IMG/VR virus record: IMGVR_UViG_3300017700_000723
Span: 466-64,465 of that record
Reading direction: 5' to 3' (one strand)
Length of the DNA: 64,000 nt
Origin: a virus
Lineage: Duplodnaviria; Caudoviricetes
The position numbers and the translations under genes were made by a program. The notes beneath the pieces are model-generated. The model was not told the DNA's origin. It did no database searches and saw nothing but the letters and a program-made list of their open reading frames with translations. Below, piece after piece: positions 28,732 through 57,936 of this stretch (positions are counted from its first letter, which is position 1; each line of letters begins with the position of its first letter).

Positions 28732-30324
28732 CTATCCTCCCGTCCCGTGTGATGTGCGCTGGCCGGCGATCTTGCGGGCCTGCCTCAGCCTGTATCGAAC
28801 GTCGTCGCCGACGTGGTCCTCGCTCTCGGTGTCCACGTCGTCCATGTCCTTCTCGTCGCGGGGCAGGACCGGCACCGTGCGCAGGAACTGCCTGCAGGTG
28901 TTGAAGACGAACAGGCCGGGCTTCTCGCGTATCTTCTTCCGCACCATGACCACCCTGCCGTCGGGCAGGGTGACCTTCTCCTTGGCCGGCAGGACGTTGC
29001 CGAGCCACTCGCGGAGCTGCTGCCAGCCCTGCTTCCTGGAGCCGGGGCCCTTCTCCGTCTCGACGAAGGTCAGGCCCTTGTACCTGACGCCGTCGATGGT
29101 GACCCACTTGGCCAGGTCGTCCGCGACCGAGGTCTCGGTGCCGTTGCTCGTGTTGAACATCTGGCTGTCGCCGGGACCGGCCTTGACCCTGGAGCCCTCG
29201 GCGGTACGCCAGCCGCGCTTGATCTCGTACTCCACGCCCAGCCTGGATATCTCGGTGTTGAGCGCGCGGGTACCCTCGTTGGGCTTCCCGGTCCAGGTGT
29301 ACACCTCGCCGACGCGGAACAGGTCGCCCCGCACCGTGCTGCGCCGCCTGCCGTCCGCGTCGAAGTAGTCCTCGCCGTTGCTCTGCGCCCAGTAGCCGAT
29401 CGAGGACGGCTTGCTCGAGCCCCAGTCCATGGACCTGTCGATCCGCCACTCGGCCGGTATCTCGAACGGCTTGACGACGCAGTGGTCCTTGACCTCGAAC
29501 CAGACGTCGTCGATCATGCCGCCGGCCACGATGTCCCACGAGCCGTCCATCCACGCGGCCAGCTCCGCGGGGTTCCTGGCCGCGGCCCTGATCCTGTCCT
29601 TGTAGGTCGGGTCGGCGGAGAGCAGGATGACGTTCTCGTCCAGGTGGCCGTGGATGGCCACTCGAGCGGGCATGCCCTCCTCCTGGACCACCGGCCCGAC
29701 GATGCGGCCGGGCGGGACGGGGAGGTTGTAGCGCAGCTTGACCCAGTTGTGGCCCGGGCCGTACGGGTTCGCCGTCGCGCGGACCTTCCTAGGCATCCCC
29801 CTGCGTGTCGAGCGGGAGCAGCTGAACATGGACTTGAAGCAGCCGTCGTCCGGGTAGGTGCAGAGCTCCTCCCAGCATATCCACGGGTAGGCGTGTCCGT
29901 GGAACTTCCAGTAGTCGCTCGGCTTGGCGAACTGGCGGAAGAGCAGGCGCTCGCCGCCGGGGAAGACCCACTGGCTCATGCTCTCGTTGTAGCGGGCCGA
30001 GGGCATGTACTGCTTGAACCAGCGCAGCGACTTCTGGATGACGTCCTGCAGCTCGGGGTACGTCCGCCTGAACAGCACGCCGGCCCAGTCCGAGCCCCAG
30101 CCGACGCCGACGTCCTGGCAGAAGTCCATGAGCGCGGCGTCCGTCTTGCCGGGTCCGCGCGTCCCCTCGTACAGCACCTCCTCGATGGGGCAGCGGAGGA
30201 ACCACTGCTGCGAGCCGGGCTGCGGCGCCCATATCGCGGACTGCTCGCCCACCGTGGGGATGAGTATGCCCGCGTCGTTCCGCTCGTAGGCCAGGCCGTC
30301 GATGAGGGACTCAGCCGGCTGCAT
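28732..30324 (-). CDS. terL: terminase large subunit
   Basis: Walker A GTRGPGKT, WEEL Walker B, ATANP, C-terminal nuclease with EDHVGDDVRY. Confidence 0.93.
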   Translation of the reverse strand: MQPAESLIDGLAYERNDAGILIPTVGEQSAIWAPQPGSQQWFLRCPIEEVLYEGTRGPGKTDAALMDFCQDVGVGWGSDWAGVLFRRTYPELQDVIQKSLRWFKQYMPSARYNESMSQWVFPGGERLLFRQFAKPSDYWKFHGHAYPWICWEELCTYPDDGCFKSMFSCSRSTRRGMPRKVRATANPYGPGHNWVKLRYNLPVPPGRIVGPVVQEEGMPARVAIHGHLDENVILLSADPTYKDRIRAAARNPAELAAWMDGSWDIVAGGMIDDVWFEVKDHCVVKPFEIPAEWRIDRSMDWGSSKPSSIGYWAQSNGEDYFDADGRRRSTVRGDLFRVGEVYTWTGKPNEGTRALNTEISRLGVEYEIKRGWRTAEGSRVKAGPGDSQMFNTSNGTETSVADDLAKWVTIDGVRYKGLTFVETEKGPGSRKQGWQQLREWLGNVLPAKEKVTLPDGRVVMVRKKIREKPGLFVFNTCRQFLRTVPVLPRDEKDMDDVDTESEDHVGDDVRYRLRQARKIAGQRTSHGTGG

Positions 30325-44833: not shown

Positions 44834-44869
44834 ACGCTGGTATACGCTGCCCCTTTGGGCGGCGTATTC

Positions 44870-45265
44870 ACATCTCGCGACTGTTCGATGCTCGAACATA
44901 GCAGTTCAGGACCCGGGGGCAGTACCCGGCGCCTCCACCACGGATGCACGCTCGTCGGTGCTCATACGGCAGTTAGTTCGGCTGCTGTGCTAAGAGCAGG
45001 TCCTCCGACTGGACCCACTCGCCGACGGAGATGGCCCGAGCTAGCAGGGCACATTGGCGTGCATCCTTGATGGGGGCGAAACAGGATCGACTGGCTGTGA
45101 CAGGGAGAGAGTAGGTCGCCGGAGTGGCTCGCGTCATAGGGCCATGAACTAGATGCCAACGACAACACCCCGGCTCAGGACTTCCGCGTCGCGGCCTGAA
45201 TGAGCTAAGACGATGGGCTACTAGGGACCCTGCCTCGTGTCAGAATTGGGTCCCGCTCATTCCAA
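44870..45265 (+). ncRNA. ssrA: circularly permuted two-piece tmRNA (alphaproteobacterial type)
   Basis: T arm CCGGG-GGCAGTA-CCCGG and CGCCTCCACCA (ends 44940); IVS; GGGGGCGAAACAGGATCGAC at 45072 giving G3:U70; tag ANDNTPAQDFRVAA at 45155-45199; outer ends approximate. Confidence 0.92.
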
Positions 45266-45277
45266 CCGGAGGGCCGC

Positions 45278-45394
45278 ATGGCCGAGACCTGCATCCAACT
45301 CGCAATCGCGTTCACGATCGCCTGCGCTGGCGTTTCCATGGTGCTCTACACCCTGTCGCATCTCGTGGCCGCTGCCGTCAAGGTCACGTCCTGA
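45278..45394 (+). CDS. small membrane protein (38 aa)
   Basis: GGAGG RBS; single TM helix. Confidence 0.5.
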   Translation: MAETCIQLAIAFTIACAGVSMVLYTLSHLVAAAVKVTS

Positions 45395-53965: not shown

Positions 53966-54348
53966 GCCAGCGAGGAAGGGAGGCGCGGGAGTATGTCGAG
54001 CGGTGCCTCGAGGAGTTCAAAGTCCCGCGGCCGTACGCGTTCGGCGTCACGGGCGGCTGCCACCAGGACGTCCGGTTCACCTACCTCGGCCGAGCCTGCC
54101 GGTACGTCTTCCCCGGCTCACCGAGCGACAGGCGCGCGCTCAAGAACTCGCGCACGGAGCTCAGGAAAGTCCTGCGCTCCACCGAGGGGAAAGCTCTTCC
54201 AGCAGGACCTCAGGGCGGACCCGTTCTGGATGCTGGTTGCGTGCTGCCTCGTCAACTTAACTACGTGGGAGGTAGCACGGGTCGCCTTCGCGAAGCTGAG
54301 GACGCGTTACGCCGATGCAAGTGGCCTCGCCACAGCAAGGCCGTCTAG
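53962..54348 (+). CDS. hypothetical protein (HicA-like N-terminal half)
   Basis: AAGGAG RBS; GCH..V.F......V.P.SPSD.RAL.N pattern; C-terminal third looks non-coding and overlaps glycosylase. Confidence 0.55.
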   Translation: MSQRGREAREYVERCLEEFKVPRPYAFGVTGGCHQDVRFTYLGRACRYVFPGSPSDRRALKNSRTELRKVLRSTEGKALPAGPQGGPVLDAGCVLPRQLNYVGGSTGRLREAEDALRRCKWPRHSKAV

Positions 54349-54736
54349 GCTCGTCCCGACGCTCAGGCCTCTCGGCCTCTCCAACATCAGGTCTGCTCGT
54401 TTGGTCGCGATGGCCAAGGCTTGGACCACGCAAGTCCCCCTCACTGCCTCGGACGTCCTAAGGCTACCTGGATGCGGCAAGTACGCGTCTGACAGCTGGG
54501 CGATCTTCATCGACGGCAGGACCGACGTGTACCCGACCGACGGCAAGTTGACGTGGTACATGGAGAGGGCTCATGCTCGAGAAGCAGCTGGCGATGGTGG
54601 AGCGGTTCCACCAGACGGTGACGGGTCTGCCGATACCGCAGTATCCTACGCGCCTGAGCCCGGAGCGCAAGGCGAAGGGCCTCGAGGCCCTGCGCGAGGA
54701 GGTAAACGAGTTCGAGGATGCCGCCAACGCGGCTGA
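54188..54736 (+). CDS. HhH-GPD DNA glycosylase, MBD4-like (5' end uncertain; first ATG 54230)
   Basis: DPFWMLVACCLVN, LRPLGL..IR, HhH LPGCGKYASDS, PTDGKL catalytic Asp as in MBD4 PEDHKL. Confidence 0.8.
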   Translation, partial: GKLFQQDLRADPFWMLVACCLVNLTTWEVARVAFAKLRTRYADASGLATARPSRLVPTLRPLGLSNIRSARLVAMAKAWTTQVPLTASDVLRLPGCGKYASDSWAIFIDGRTDVYPTDGKLTWYMERAHAREAAGDGGAVPPDGDGSADTAVSYAPEPGAQGEGPRGPARGGKRVRGCRQRG

Positions 54737-55589
54737 CGAGGCCGACGCCCTGGTGGACCTGATCTACTTCGCCTACGGACGCCTCCTCGAGATGGGCATA
54801 CGACCAGGTCCAGCCTTCCAGCTCGTGCACGACGCCAACATGAAGAAGGTCGGTGGGACCAACAAGCGCGGCAGCCTGTACGAGGCGGCCAAGCCCGATG
54901 AGTGGCGCGCTCCCGACTGGGACTGGCTCTTCATGACCGAGATCGAAGGCCGCGGGCAGTACGTCGGCCTGAAGCGCCGGGACACGACGCTCATCCAGCC
55001 AAAGCATAACCCCTACGACGGCGCCTCCCTGCCGAAGAGGAAGGTCCTCCTGCTCGGCTACGGACGGCACGGCAAGGACACCGTCGCCGAGATGCTCAGG
55101 GACCACTACGGGCTCTCCTTCACGTCGAGCAGTCTGTTCTGCGCCGAGAAGGTGATGATGCCGGCGTTCCTGCGCGCGCGTCAGGAGTGGCTCTCTACAC
55201 CGCTCGGCCCCGAGACGGGCAAGACCTCAATCCCAATGCTCTACGACAGCGTCGAGGCGTGCTTCAACGACCGGCACAACCATCGCAAGTTCTGGTTCGA
55301 TGAGATCGAGCGGTTCAACACGCCGGACAAGGCCTCGTTGGGCAAGGCTATCTTCGCCGAGCACGACATCTACTGTGGCCTGCGCAGCAAGCGGGAGTTC
55401 GCCGCCGTCAAGAACTCCGGGCTGTACGACGTCTGCATCTGGGTCGACCGATCTGACCACGTCCCGCCGGAGGACAAGTCGTCCTGCACGGTCGAGCCGT
55501 GGATGGCGGACTACGTCCTCGACAACAACGGGACACTTGAGGAGCTGCGGTTCAACCTGGACCAGCTCATGACCTCACTGGAGAAGTGA
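54573..55589 (+). CDS. fusion of MazG/DR2231-like NTP pyrophosphatase and deoxynucleoside monophosphate kinase
   Basis: EEVNEF...DALVDLIY...VHDANMKK N-terminal; P-loop GYGRHGKDTVA C-terminal. Confidence 0.85.
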   Translation: MLEKQLAMVERFHQTVTGLPIPQYPTRLSPERKAKGLEALREEVNEFEDAANAADEADALVDLIYFAYGRLLEMGIRPGPAFQLVHDANMKKVGGTNKRGSLYEAAKPDEWRAPDWDWLFMTEIEGRGQYVGLKRRDTTLIQPKHNPYDGASLPKRKVLLLGYGRHGKDTVAEMLRDHYGLSFTSSSLFCAEKVMMPAFLRARQEWLSTPLGPETGKTSIPMLYDSVEACFNDRHNHRKFWFDEIERFNTPDKASLGKAIFAEHDIYCGLRSKREFAAVKNSGLYDVCIWVDRSDHVPPEDKSSCTVEPWMADYVLDNNGTLEELRFNLDQLMTSLEK

Positions 55590-55590
55590 A

Positions 55591-56427
55591 TTGCAGAACT
55601 TCAACACAGCCTACCACGATCTGCTGGGCGACCTCGTCTCCAGTCCGTTCTCCGAGGTGAACGAGCGGACCGGCGTCGAGATCAAGATGATCCCTGGCGG
55701 CTACTCGTTCAAGATCGACCTGTCTGACCAGACGCTGCCTGTCACAGGCTCCCGCAAGTTGTTCCCGCATGTGGCCGCGGCGGAGATCGCGTGGTTCATC
55801 CGCGGGGACCAGGACACAGTGTTCCTCAACCAGCACGGCGTGAAGATTTGGGACAAGTTCGTCGAGGCGGACGGTAAGACGGTCGAGGCGGCGTACGGCT
55901 ATCGGTGGCGCTACGCCTTCGACCGTGACCAGCTCTGGTGTGCGATCGAGGCGTTGCGGAAGAACAGCACGGACCGCCGTATCTGGGTACAGGCCTGGGA
56001 CCCCCGCGTAGACGGCCTCGGCGCCGCCGGCCAGAAGAACGTGCCCTGTCCCGTCGGCTTCACCCTGTCGCTGGTCGACGGCCTCCTCCACAGCTCCCTG
56101 TTCATCCGCAGCTCGGACGTGTTCGTCGGCCTGCCGTACGACGTCATGGGCCACGCGATGCTCATGGCGGTCGTCGCTGCGTCGGTCGGAGCCATGGGCC
56201 TCGGCTCGATGCACGTCACGCTGGCCCACGCGCACCTATACAAGTCGCACTACGACATGGTGGACGCCGCCCTGTCGCAGACGATGTACCCGCAGGGGCC
56301 GAAGCTCTACGCCTGGACGCGGGACGACGTCCTCCGCGACCCGGACGGTTTCGTCTGGACGTACCGCAAGGCCGCGCAGGACGTCGCGTGGCCATCCTAC
56401 TCACCCAAGCCGGAGTTGATCCTTTGA
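55591..56427 (+). CDS. thymidylate synthase homolog, predicted dCMP methylase/hydroxymethylase
   Basis: TS fold motifs (EIAWFI.G, IWD, catalytic PC, RSSD, HLY) with Asp184 at the TS Asn177 position. Confidence 0.88.
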   Translation: MQNFNTAYHDLLGDLVSSPFSEVNERTGVEIKMIPGGYSFKIDLSDQTLPVTGSRKLFPHVAAAEIAWFIRGDQDTVFLNQHGVKIWDKFVEADGKTVEAAYGYRWRYAFDRDQLWCAIEALRKNSTDRRIWVQAWDPRVDGLGAAGQKNVPCPVGFTLSLVDGLLHSSLFIRSSDVFVGLPYDVMGHAMLMAVVAASVGAMGLGSMHVTLAHAHLYKSHYDMVDAALSQTMYPQGPKLYAWTRDDVLRDPDGFVWTYRKAAQDVAWPSYSPKPELIL

Positions 56428-56828
56428 AGCTTATGCCTGCACCCCCGCCCGAGAAGCCCGGCGATGACCCCGCCGTCCACCCGTTCGTCAACGCGTTCGC
56501 CAACATCGGCGCGATCATGGGCCGCGACCTCGGCGTCGTCGCCCTGCGGTCGATCGAGGCCCAGAGGGGCGGTACGAGCGCTGTCCTGTTCTGGTCCGCG
56601 GAGGACTGCCCCGAGGCGATCAAGGCGAAGGTCCCCGCCGAGATGACGGTCGGACTGTACGCCGTGATGATCGTGCCGCCCAAGGCGTCCGTCCCTGGCT
56701 TCCTGTTCACGGACGCCGACGTTCAGGCGGCGAAGGTCAACCTCGTCGACGGCTCCATCCTGGTGGCCTTCGTGCGGAAGTCGACCGAGGACAGCGAGCG
56801 CATCGCGGACCAGTTCAACGCAGGCTGA
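56424..56828 (+). CDS. hypothetical protein
   Basis: TTG start overlapping TS-homolog stop. Confidence 0.55.
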   Translation: MKLMPAPPPEKPGDDPAVHPFVNAFANIGAIMGRDLGVVALRSIEAQRGGTSAVLFWSAEDCPEAIKAKVPAEMTVGLYAVMIVPPKASVPGFLFTDADVQAAKVNLVDGSILVAFVRKSTEDSERIADQFNAG

Positions 56829-57076
56829 TGCCGCGCGTCCTCAACAAGTACCGCGACGTCATACCCCCGGGCGCAGTCTACTGCGGCCGGGGTTCACCTT
56901 ATGGCAACCCCTTCCCGATCGCAGGGAACATGACCAGGAAAAAGGCGATAGAGAGGTTCCGCTGCGAGGTTCTGCCGTCGCTAGACTGCGAGCCGTTGCG
57001 GGGAAAGGACCTAGTATGCTTCTGCAAGCCGAAGCCCTGCCACGTGGACCTGGTCCTGGAGAAGGCCAACCGCTAG
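56828..57076 (+). CDS. DUF4326 family protein
   Basis: YCGRGSPYGNPF...LRGKDLVCFCKPKPCH signature. Confidence 0.88.
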   Translation: MPRVLNKYRDVIPPGAVYCGRGSPYGNPFPIAGNMTRKKAIERFRCEVLPSLDCEPLRGKDLVCFCKPKPCHVDLVLEKANR

Positions 57077-57435
57077 ACCCCTGGGAGATGCACGCTTATG
57101 TCTTCACGTACCACGGCGATGACCCGCGTCCGTTCTTCGAAAGGACCTTCCCGGCCAGCTGCCTCGCCCAGGCCCAAGACTGGATCGGCCGCCAAAGGCA
57201 CCGAGGCTTCATCTGCGTCGACTGCCTCCCCCGCTTCTATTACCGCTAAGTTCAAGCCGAAGGACCGGGTCGAGACGACGCCCGCCTTCTCAGAGCTGTT
57301 CGACGGCGGTGCCCACTGGACCGGCACGGTCCTGAGCGCGAAGTCGTTCGACAAGTTCGTACAGTACATGGTGCAGACGGAGCAGGCTGGTCTCTGTCGC
57401 ATCGGCGAGAAGTGGCTCAAGAAGGAGACCAAGCG

Positions 57436-57936
57436 ATGAGACTGCTGATGGCGGTGAGCAAGGACGGCTACGTGGCCCGGCGGAAGGACGACGACATGTC
57501 CTGGACCGGGCCCTTCGACAAGGCGGTGTTTCGCCTGCTCAGCCACGTGGGCGGTGAGCTGGGGTGCGGATCGAGGACGTACGACCTGCTCCCACACAGG
57601 CTCAAGGGCCGCAACATCCACCGGCTCAGCCAGCAACCCGTGCCGCCGCAGGCCGCCACACCCGCCTCGCCACTCGTGCAGAACCTGTCCTGGTTCGCCG
57701 AAACGTACACGGGCGGCTGGCTCATCGGCGGTCTGCACATCGCGGTCAACGCCCTGCAGATGGACCTCGTCGACGAGGCGTTCATCTGCCAGTCCGACCG
57801 CAGCTGCTTCCCGGGCGACGACGGCGAGCTCTGCACCCTCGGGCTGCTCATCAACGACCGTGGGACGGACTGGGAGCGGACCGACGAGATAAAGGTCGGC
57901 GACACGACCGTCAACGTATGGAAGCGCCGACGATGA
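57436..57936 (+). CDS. dihydrofolate reductase-like protein
   Basis: LMAVSKDGYVA, MSWTGPFDKAVFR, GSRTY, LKGRN, WLIGG DHFR-like motifs. Confidence 0.75.
   Translation: MRLLMAVSKDGYVARRKDDDMSWTGPFDKAVFRLLSHVGGELGCGSRTYDLLPHRLKGRNIHRLSQQPVPPQAATPASPLVQNLSWFAETYTGGWLIGGLHIAVNALQMDLVDEAFICQSDRSCFPGDDGELCTLGLLINDRGTDWERTDEIKVGDTTVNVWKRRR

What the first reader, a model, noticed from the sequence alone, without database searches (positions are those of the whole stretch)
56041..56142. Thymidylate synthase homolog has Asp at the dUMP/dCMP specificity position
RSSDVFVGLPYD has Asp184 (codon 56140-56142) where ThyA has Asn177 (RSCDVFLGLPFN). Asp at this position is the established determinant of dCMP use, as in T4 dCMP hydroxymethylase. 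The His after the catalytic Cys (C153) is also replaced by Pro. This differs from the 5hmU pathway typical of YuA/M6.
Basis: partly seen in the sequence, partly recalled or inferred. Interest (0 to 1): 0.75.

Follow-up and report, generated by a model that had tools for sequence, protein, structure and literature searches.

The report
Xp12-type dCMP methylase in a phage

Summary
ORF 55591-56427 (+, 278 aa) is a thymidylate synthase family protein (PF00303, E 1e-44). It has Cys153, Pro154 in place of ThyA His147, and Asp184 (GAC, 56140-56142) in place of ThyA Asn177. These are not chance changes: C153, P154 and D184 are invariant in 70 of 70 relatives.

The reading "uses dCMP" is supported, but the T4 hydroxymethylase comparison is not the best fit. 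The protein is about 50% identical to the homolog of Xanthomonas phage Xp12, which was shown experimentally to make 5-methyl-dCMP. It groups with the Xp12/PaMx74 enzymes and lies far from T4 gp42. It has Asn, not Asp/Glu, three residues before the Cys, keeps Asp at ThyA D169, and keeps a C-terminal tail. It sits in the Xp12-type gene cluster: MazG-like pyrophosphatase, TS homolog, DHFR. The most likely function is therefore dCMP 5-methyltransferase, giving 5mC DNA.

N177D and position 147 are already published markers of cytosine-modifying TS homologs, so this is a new member of a known kind.

Two local differences from Xp12 stand out. The genome has no dCMP/5mdCTP deaminase, and the MazG domain is fused to a dNMP kinase. 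No enzyme activity or DNA modification was measured here.

The parts
55591..56427 (+). Thymidylate-synthase-family gene, 278 aa, TTG start; predicted dCMP 5-methyltransferase (5-methyl-dCMP synthase)
   Evidence: PF00303 E 1e-44. phrog_160 E 8e-61. 50.5% identity to Xp12 TS over 97% of its length. AF2 model pLDDT 96.5, TM 0.75-0.81 to solved ThyA structures.
56038..56052 (+). Active-site stretch N150-V151-P152-C153-P154. It holds the catalytic Cys, Pro at ThyA H147, and Asn at -3 from the Cys (ThyA L143 position).
   Evidence: N150 is present in 69 of 70 relatives; P152, C153 and P154 in 70 of 70. Xp12 has the same NVPCP. T4 gp42 (SDFMC) and M6-like WP2 (KDLPC) have Asp at -3.
56107..56142 (+). 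R173-S174-S175-D176 ... Y183-D184: nucleotide-binding strand with Asp176 (ThyA D169, kept) and Asp184 (ThyA N177, the pyrimidine-specificity position)
   Evidence: All of these residues are invariant in 70 of 70 relatives.
54573..55589 (+). Upstream gene, 338 aa: MazG-like (PRA-PH) nucleotide pyrophosphohydrolase fused to a dNMP kinase domain. Predicted to degrade dCTP and to phosphorylate 5-methyl-dCMP (inferred).
   Evidence: PF01503 E 2.8e-12 on residues 10-89. phrog_38514 E 5e-107 over the full length; phrog_139 dNMP kinase E 8.6e-15 on residues 234-335. Full-length match in RcRudolph and L013; in Xp12, PaMx74 and ZQG1 only the first ~135 residues match.
57412..57936 (+). Dihydrofolate reductase-like gene, 174 aa. 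It would recycle the dihydrofolate that a methylase produces but a hydroxymethylase does not.
   Evidence: phrog_13578 DHFR E 5.5e-39. Pfam DHFR_1 only E 0.008, below the cut-off. 37-42% identity to the DHFR genes of Xp12, PaMx74, Donnerlittchen and RcRudolph at the same position.
56433..56828 (+). Conserved unknown gene (131 aa from the ATG; a TTG at 56424 overlaps the TS stop as TTGA). It sits where relatives carry the deaminase. It is not a deaminase.
   Evidence: No Pfam or PHROG hit. No HxE/PCxxC zinc motif. Homologs lie directly downstream of the TS gene in L013, L015, L016 and L017 at 35-61% identity. The atlas search gave nothing usable.
56828..57076 (+). DUF4326 gene, 82 aa, between the TS homolog and DHFR
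   Evidence: PF14216 E 8.7e-17; phrog_464.
54170..54736 (+). HhH-GPD (endonuclease III-like) gene upstream of the MazG fusion; part of the conserved Xp12-type module
   Evidence: Weak Pfam HhH-GPD hit, E 0.0011. 51% identity to the Xp12 gene and 55% to the Donnerlittchen 'endonuclease III' gene at the same position.

Best explanation
The gene encodes an Xp12-type deoxycytidylate 5-methyltransferase, a member of the thymidylate synthase superfamily. Cys153 attacks C6 of dCMP. Asp184 hydrogen-bonds N3 and the 4-amino group of cytosine and so selects dCMP over dUMP. The methylene of CH2-THF is transferred to C5 and reduced by hydride from the folate, giving 5-methyl-dCMP and dihydrofolate. The neighbouring DHFR-like enzyme recycles the dihydrofolate. 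The upstream fusion protein probably removes dCTP through its MazG domain and phosphorylates 5-methyl-dCMP through its dNMP kinase domain. Host NDP kinase and the phage family A polymerase would then put 5mC into phage DNA in place of C, protecting it from restriction. What is shown here: family membership, the active-site residues, clade membership and gene-cluster synteny. What is inferred: substrate, product, the roles of the neighbours and the modification state of the DNA.
For: - **Family and fold.** PF00303 matches at E 1e-44, and the AF2 model has TM 0.75-0.81 to ThyA structures.
- **Specificity residues.** Asp184 sits at ThyA N177 and Pro154 at H147, both invariant in 70 of 70 relatives. 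N177D switches TS to dCMP, and positions 177 and 147 are the top two residues associated with cytosine-modified phage DNA (PMC8670742).
- **Closest cultured relatives.** These are Xp12 (50.5%), PaMx74, ZQG1, Donnerlittchen and RcRudolph. The Xp12 homolog was shown by LC-MS to make 5mdC, and PaMx74 replaces C with 5mC (bioRxiv 10.1101/2024.12.05.627091).
- **Shared active site.** At 11 of the 12 positions listed within 6 A of C5 (PMC13326640) the window matches Xp12. The twelfth is Ile versus Leu at Q165. This mapping counts residues back from the catalytic Cys and agrees with HMMER.
- **Product markers.** The L143 position is Asn, not the Asp/Glu of hydroxymethylases. D169 is Asp, not the Asn of 5-hydroxy-dCMP synthases.
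- **C-terminal tail.** A tail is present, whereas T4 gp42 ends before it. Its absence is said to leave the T4 folate site open (PMC5175136).
- **Tree.** The window groups inside the Asp-177 family with Xp12/PaMx74, far from T4 gp42 and M6-like WP2.
- **Synteny.** The order polA, helicase, phrog_11422, HhH-GPD, MazG, TS, DHFR, phrog_2165, HIRAN is as in Xp12, PaMx74, ZQG1 and Donnerlittchen.
Against: - No activity or DNA composition was measured.
- Identity to the verified Xp12 enzyme is only about 50%, and the window lies in a sister sub-clade (27 rows, SH-aLRT 86) with no characterised member.
- The L143 rule is a published correlation, not a proven determinant. The clade has a 3-4 residue insertion just before the Pro-Cys, so MAFFT and HMMER map L143 differently.
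- Unlike every cultured relative examined, the genome has no dCMP/5mdCTP deaminase, no ThyX and no second ThyA. The dTTP supply of the Xp12 scheme is therefore missing, and the pathway may differ in this lineage.
- The DHFR assignment rests on PHROG and on similarity to relatives; Pfam is below its cut-off.
Confidence: 0.8

Rival explanations
1. It is a T4-type dCMP hydroxymethylase. The exocyclic methylene intermediate is hydrated instead of reduced, giving 5-hydroxymethyl-dCMP and 5hmC DNA. This is the analogue the first reader named.
For: It shares Asp at the N177 position and loss of His147 with T4 gp42. Asn at the L143 position is polar and isosteric with the Asp of hydroxymethylases, so water access is not excluded.
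Against: - The residue at -3 from the Cys is not acidic; it is Asn in 69 of 70 relatives, the same as in Xp12, which makes 5mdC.
- A C-terminal tail is present, unlike in gp42.
- A DHFR gene is conserved beside it, though a hydroxymethylase produces THF, not DHF.
- In the tree it is very distant from gp42.
- Foldseek's top 50 matches are all true thymidylate synthases.
Confidence: 0.07
2. It is a dual-substrate methylase. In this deaminase-less lineage the same enzyme methylates both dCMP (to 5mdCMP) and dUMP (to dTMP), so it also serves as the phage's thymidylate synthase.
For: The complete genome has no PF00383 deaminase, no ThyX and only one PF00303 gene. All cultured relatives examined carry a deaminase next to the TS, and that deaminase is proposed to make dTTP from 5mdCTP. 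From my own recollection of the mutagenesis papers cited, which I did not read here, N229D/N177D mutants of ordinary TS keep some dUMP activity.
Against: Nothing in the sequence separates the window's active site from Xp12's. The host dTTP pool is a simpler source. The near relative L017 has both the unknown downstream gene and a deaminase, so loss of the deaminase need not have changed the TS.
Confidence: 0.1
3. It is an ordinary thymidylate synthase (dUMP to dTMP), as the relatives are annotated in GenBank and JGI.
For: Database names for all relatives are 'thymidylate synthase'. The fold and most catalytic residues are those of ThyA.
Against: Asn177, which is invariant in real ThyA and excludes dCMP, is Asp in 70 of 70 relatives, and His147 is Pro. 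The Xp12 homolog makes 5mdC. The database names are automatic annotation.
Confidence: 0.03

Closest known systems
Xanthomonas phage Xp12 thymidylate synthase homolog (QNN97214.1), the dCMP methyltransferase behind Xp12's complete C-to-5mC replacement
   Same: 50.5% identity over 97% of the length. It shares the NVPCP and RSSD..GLPYD motifs. The gene order MazG, TS, DHFR, phrog_2165, HIRAN is the same, with an HhH-GPD gene upstream.
   Different: - The window lies in a different sub-clade.
- The window lacks the adjacent deaminase and has an unknown 131-aa gene plus DUF4326 there instead.
- The window's MazG protein carries a dNMP kinase domain that Xp12's lacks.
- The Q165 position is Ile in the window and Leu in Xp12.
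Pseudomonas phage PaMx74/PaMx28 ThyA homologs (Pamexvirus)
   Same: 46.6-48.3% identity, the same signature residues and the same cluster. PaMx74 is reported to replace C with 5mC.
   Different: These phages have the deaminase and no kinase fusion. They have a longer insertion after the W80 region.
T4 gp42 dCMP hydroxymethylase (PDB 1B5E)
   Same: TS superfamily, catalytic Cys, Asp at the N177 position, His147 lost, dCMP substrate.
   Different: gp42 has Asp at -3 from the Cys and no C-terminal tail. Its product is hydroxymethyl and it needs no DHFR. It lies on a very long, saturated branch away from the window's enzyme.
E. coli ThyA N177D and L. casei TS N229D mutants
   Same: A single Asn-to-Asp change at this position converts TS into a dCMP methylase (papers cited in PMC8670742). 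The window carries the natural equivalent.
   Different: The natural enzyme also has H147P, C168S, Q165I, W83F and F176Y and an insertion before the Pro-Cys. It is only 27% identical to E. coli ThyA.
M6/YuA-type TS homolog (represented by Pseudomonas phage WP2 gp30, phrog_5131), a dUMP hydroxymethylase feeding 5hmU-derived hypermodification
   Same: A TS-superfamily enzyme in a related siphovirus group. The window's TerL is about 53% identical to that of ~61-kb P. aeruginosa phages (PC1, Lydia, S218); I did not check whether these are YuA-like.
   Different: WP2 has Asn at 177 and Asp at -3, plus a long C-terminal extension, and matches only residues 53-180 of the window's protein at 33%.

Membership tests
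Thymidylate synthase superfamily (Pfam PF00303) | Profile match above the curated cut-off, and the TS fold | tested here: met
   153 bits against a cut-off of 24.3. AF2 model pLDDT 96.5, TM 0.75-0.81 to ThyA structures.
Thymidylate synthase superfamily (Pfam PF00303) | Catalytic Pro-Cys, the phosphate-binding Arg residues (R21, R126, R127, R166), S167, E58, Y94, D169, H207, Y209 | tested here: met
   All are present in the window (R26, R129, R130, R173, S174, E65, Y102, D176, H215, Y217, C153) and are invariant in the 70 relatives.
Canonical ThyA (dUMP to dTMP) | Asn at position 177 and His at 147 | tested here: not met
   Asp184 and Pro154.
Xp12-type dCMP 5-methyltransferase | Asp at the ThyA N177 position | tested here: met
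   D184, GAC at 56140-56142; present in 70 of 70 relatives.
Xp12-type dCMP 5-methyltransferase | Non-acidic residue at the L143 position (-3 from the Cys), as in the verified Xp12 enzyme | tested here: met
   N150, identical to Xp12's NVPCP and present in 69 of 70 relatives. The mapping follows adjacency to the Cys and the HMMER alignment; MAFFT places the nearby gap differently.
Xp12-type dCMP 5-methyltransferase | Groups with experimentally characterised members in a tree | tested here: met
   It lies inside the Asp-177 family with Xp12 and PaMx74, but in a sister sub-clade without characterised members.
Xp12-type dCMP 5-methyltransferase | Gene cluster with a MazG-like pyrophosphatase and DHFR | tested here: met
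Xp12-type dCMP 5-methyltransferase | Adjacent dCMP-family (5mdCTP) deaminase, as in Xp12 and PaMx74 | tested here: not met
   No PF00383 match at E <= 1 in the complete 64.5-kb record. The gene at that position is unrelated to deaminases. This is an accessory of the pathway, not a feature of the enzyme.
Xp12-type dCMP 5-methyltransferase | Product is 5-methyl-dCMP with dihydrofolate; virion DNA carries 5mC in place of C | not testable with these tools
   This needs an enzyme assay or nucleoside LC-MS.
T4-type dCMP hydroxymethylase | Asp/Glu at the L143 position and absence of the TS C-terminal segment | tested here: not met
   The window has Asn150 and a C-terminal tail (WPSYSPKPELIL). T4 gp42 has SDFMC and ends earlier.
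5-hydroxy-dCMP synthase (RB69/DLP3 type) | Asn at the ThyA D169 position | tested here: not met
   D176 is kept, in 70 of 70 relatives.

The most novel reading that the evidence does not exclude
In this sub-clade, which has no deaminase, a MazG-dNMP kinase fusion and a conserved unknown gene translationally coupled to the TS homolog, the pathway may differ from Xp12's. The Asp-184 enzyme could serve both dCMP and dUMP, or the unknown 131-aa partner could alter its product or supply thymidylate by an undescribed route.
Probability: 0.1. Interest if true: 0.55.

Novelty: new member of a known kind. Interest (0 to 1): 0.25.

Why it matters
It lets one predict, from sequence alone, that an uncultured 64-kb phage from a metagenome carries 5-methylcytosine in place of cytosine. 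That affects restriction sensitivity, sequencing and cloning behaviour, and host-defence evasion. It also corrects the routine "thymidylate synthase" label. The principle itself, Asp at the N177 position marking dCMP-modifying enzymes, is already published and in use for mining. The added value is therefore a correct annotation, plus the note that one lineage runs the pathway without the usual deaminase and with a pyrophosphatase-kinase fusion.

Tried and rejected
- **Second route to thymidylate, or post-replicative cytosine chemistry.** I searched the complete record for PF00383 deaminase, ThyX (PF02511), Tet_JBP (PF12851) and C5 DNA methylase (PF00145). None matched at E <= 1.
- **Is the 131-aa gene after the TS a degenerate deaminase?** No. 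It has no similarity to five phage deaminases, no zinc motif, no Pfam or PHROG hit, and only sub-threshold atlas hits.
- **SIOphi thyA as a dUMP hydroxymethylase reference.** I fetched it and dropped it, because it is a Bastillevirinae phage with no evidence of 5hmU.
- **MAFFT mapping of ThyA L143.** It was misleading because of a 3-4 residue insertion before the Pro-Cys. I used adjacency to the Cys and the HMMER alignment instead.
- **Steps not taken.** I did not use sequencing-run or read tools, because short-read contigs cannot show 5mC. I did not run a complex prediction, because I make no binding claim.

Full report
**What is there.** The window is nearly all (bases 466-64465) of a 64,465-base IMG/VR virus record with direct terminal repeats. 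ORF 55591-56427 on the + strand starts at TTG, with GGAGAA 6 nt upstream, one base after the stop of the preceding gene. It encodes 278 aa. It matches Pfam Thymidylat_synt at E 1e-44 and phrog_160 at E 8e-61. An AlphaFold2 model built on 70 relatives has mean pLDDT 96.5. Its best Foldseek matches are all true thymidylate synthases, with TM 0.75-0.81.

**Checking the observation.** The DNA reads TGT (Cys153) at 56047-56049, CCC (Pro154) at 56050-56052 and GAC (Asp184) at 56140-56142. HMMER against M. tuberculosis ThyA and MAFFT with E. coli ThyA both put C153 on C146, P154 on H147 and D184 on N177. In an alignment of 70 relatives from public genomes and metagenomes, C153, P154, D176 and D184 are invariant.

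**What it is related to.** The closest cultured relatives, all at 45-51% identity over the full length, are the "thymidylate synthases" of these phages:
- Xanthomonas phage Xp12
- Pseudomonas phages ZQG1, PaMx28, PaMx74 and AAT-1
- Janthinobacterium phage Donnerlittchen
- Stenotrophomonas phages DLP4 and AXL1
- Rhodobacter phage RcRudolph
- the Roseobacter RDJL phages

Xp12 is the classic phage in which 5-methylcytosine replaces all cytosine. Its TS homolog was shown by LC-MS to produce 5mdC when expressed with T4 gp1, and PaMx74 is also reported to replace C with 5mC (bioRxiv 10.1101/2024.12.05.627091). Metagenomic relatives reach 81% identity.

In a maximum-likelihood tree, the window's enzyme sits in a 27-row sub-clade. 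That sub-clade belongs to the same Asp-177 family as the Xp12/PaMx74 sub-clade. E. coli ThyA, a T2-like Td, T4 gp42 and an M6-like TS (phage WP2) lie outside on long branches.

**Methyl or hydroxymethyl.** Published diagnostic positions (PMC13326640; PMC8670742) are as follows:

| ThyA position | Residue and meaning | Window |
|---|---|---|
| N177 | Asp: uses dCMP | Asp184 |
| H147 | changed in cytosine-modifying enzymes | Pro154 |
| L143 | bulky hydrophobic in methylases; Asp/Glu in hydroxymethylases | Asn150 |
| D169 | Asn in 5-hydroxy-dCMP synthases | Asp176 |

Counting back from the catalytic Cys, which agrees with the HMMER alignment, the window has N150-V-P-C153. That is identical to Xp12 and present in 69 of 70 relatives. 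T4 gp42 has D-F-M-C and M6-like WP2 has D-L-P-C. Asp176 is kept at the D169 position.

Of the 12 residues listed within 6 A of C5, the window matches Xp12 at 11. The twelfth is Ile versus Leu, and both are common in the clade. The enzyme keeps a C-terminal tail, which T4 gp42 lacks. In T4 that absence is said to leave the folate site open (PMC5175136). These points favour reductive methylation.

One caveat applies. The clade has a 3-4 residue insertion before the Pro-Cys, so MAFFT maps L143 differently. In addition, the L143 rule is a correlation, not a proven determinant.

**Context.** The surrounding genes keep the order seen in Xp12, PaMx74, ZQG1 and Donnerlittchen: family A polymerase, helicase, phrog_11422 protein, HhH-GPD protein, MazG-like pyrophosphohydrolase, TS homolog, DHFR, phrog_2165 protein, HIRAN protein.

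The DHFR-like gene (57412-57936) matches phrog_13578 at E 5.5e-39 and is 37-42% identical to the relatives' DHFRs. Pfam is below its cut-off. A DHFR beside the enzyme fits a methylase, which makes dihydrofolate, better than a hydroxymethylase, which does not.

**How this phage differs from Xp12.**
- The complete record has no dCMP-family deaminase at E <= 1, no ThyX and no second ThyA. Every cultured relative I examined has a deaminase right after the TS gene. That deaminase is proposed to make dTTP from 5mdCTP.
- The deaminase's place is taken by a conserved unknown gene (56433-56828), whose alternative TTG start overlaps the TS stop, followed by a DUF4326 gene. The unknown gene recurs directly downstream of the TS in relatives L013, L015, L016 and L017. 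L017 also has a deaminase elsewhere, and the unknown gene is unrelated to deaminases.
- The MazG-like protein (54573-55589) is fused to a dNMP kinase domain (phrog_139, E 8.6e-15). RcRudolph and the metagenomic relative L013 match it over its full length; Xp12, PaMx74 and ZQG1 match only its first ~135 residues.
- No Tet/JBP dioxygenase or C5 DNA methylase was found, so nothing points to further processing of 5mC.

**Most likely mechanism.** The MazG domain lowers the dCTP pool and yields dCMP. The TS homolog methylates dCMP, with Asp184 reading the cytosine face and folate supplying carbon and hydride. DHFR recycles the folate. The fused kinase and host NDP kinase raise 5mdCMP to the triphosphate, and the phage polymerase incorporates it. 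Only family membership, residues, clade and synteny are shown here. Substrate, product and DNA state are inferred. I put this at 0.8.

The rivals are a T4-like hydroxymethylase (0.07), a dual dCMP/dUMP methylase that compensates for the missing deaminase (0.10) and an ordinary ThyA (0.03).

**Novelty.** The N177D determinant dates from 1992 mutagenesis. Positions 177 and 147 were singled out by MetaGPA in 2021. The 2024 preprint mined IMG/VR for exactly this signature. This is therefore a new member of a known kind.

Xp12, ZQG1 and Donnerlittchen are classified in Mesyanzhinovviridae. The window's TerL is 58% identical to that of Roseobacter phage RDJL3 and about 53% to those of ~61-kb P. aeruginosa phages whose taxonomy I did not check. 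The nucleotide-metabolism module, however, is of the Xp12 type, where 5mC is the expected outcome.

The scan's own earlier notes on this window reach the same pathway reading.

Noticed in passing
window 54573-55589 (+): The MazG-like pyrophosphohydrolase is fused to a T4 gp1-like dNMP kinase domain (phrog_139, E 8.6e-15). RcRudolph and the metagenomic relative L013 match the protein over its full length. Xp12, PaMx74 and ZQG1 match only its first ~135 residues.
   Followed up: partly
window 56424/56433-56828 (+); L013:6840-7193, L015:4861-5313, L016:4837-5250, L017:4910-5392: A conserved protein family of unknown function lies immediately downstream of, and apparently translationally coupled to, the Asp-177 TS homolog in this sub-clade. 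It has no Pfam or PHROG hit, is not a deaminase, and has a poor structure model in the atlas (pLDDT 0.56).
   Followed up: partly
whole record (G000): No dCMP-family deaminase, ThyX or second ThyA is present in a complete genome predicted to replace C with 5mC. All cultured relatives examined have a deaminase next to the TS gene. The source of dTTP is therefore open: the host pool, or a dual-substrate enzyme.
   Followed up: partly
window 53993-54736 (+): The HhH-GPD (endonuclease III-like) ORF is homologous to Xp12 QNN97216.1 and to the Donnerlittchen 'endonuclease III'. Homology ends near 54565-54667, but the frame stays open to 54736. It therefore overlaps the start of the MazG gene (54573) by about 160 nt.
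   Followed up: no
window 56828-57076 (+): A DUF4326 gene sits between the TS homolog and DHFR. It has no counterpart at E <= 1e-3 in the seven relatives' loci compared. One paper (PMC9503650) proposes that the domain is a rhodanese-phosphatase-like enzyme acting on ADP-ribose derivatives.
   Followed up: no
window 44845-45290 (+): ARAGORN calls a permuted tmRNA gene with tag peptide ANDNTPAQDFRVAA in this phage genome.
   Followed up: no
window 28735-30324 (-): The best large-terminase match is Roseobacter phage RDJL3 (58%), followed by ~61-kb P. aeruginosa phages PC1, Lydia and S218 (about 53%). Together with the permuted tmRNA and the RcRudolph-like fusion, this hints at an alphaproteobacterial host. 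The host is not established.
   Followed up: no
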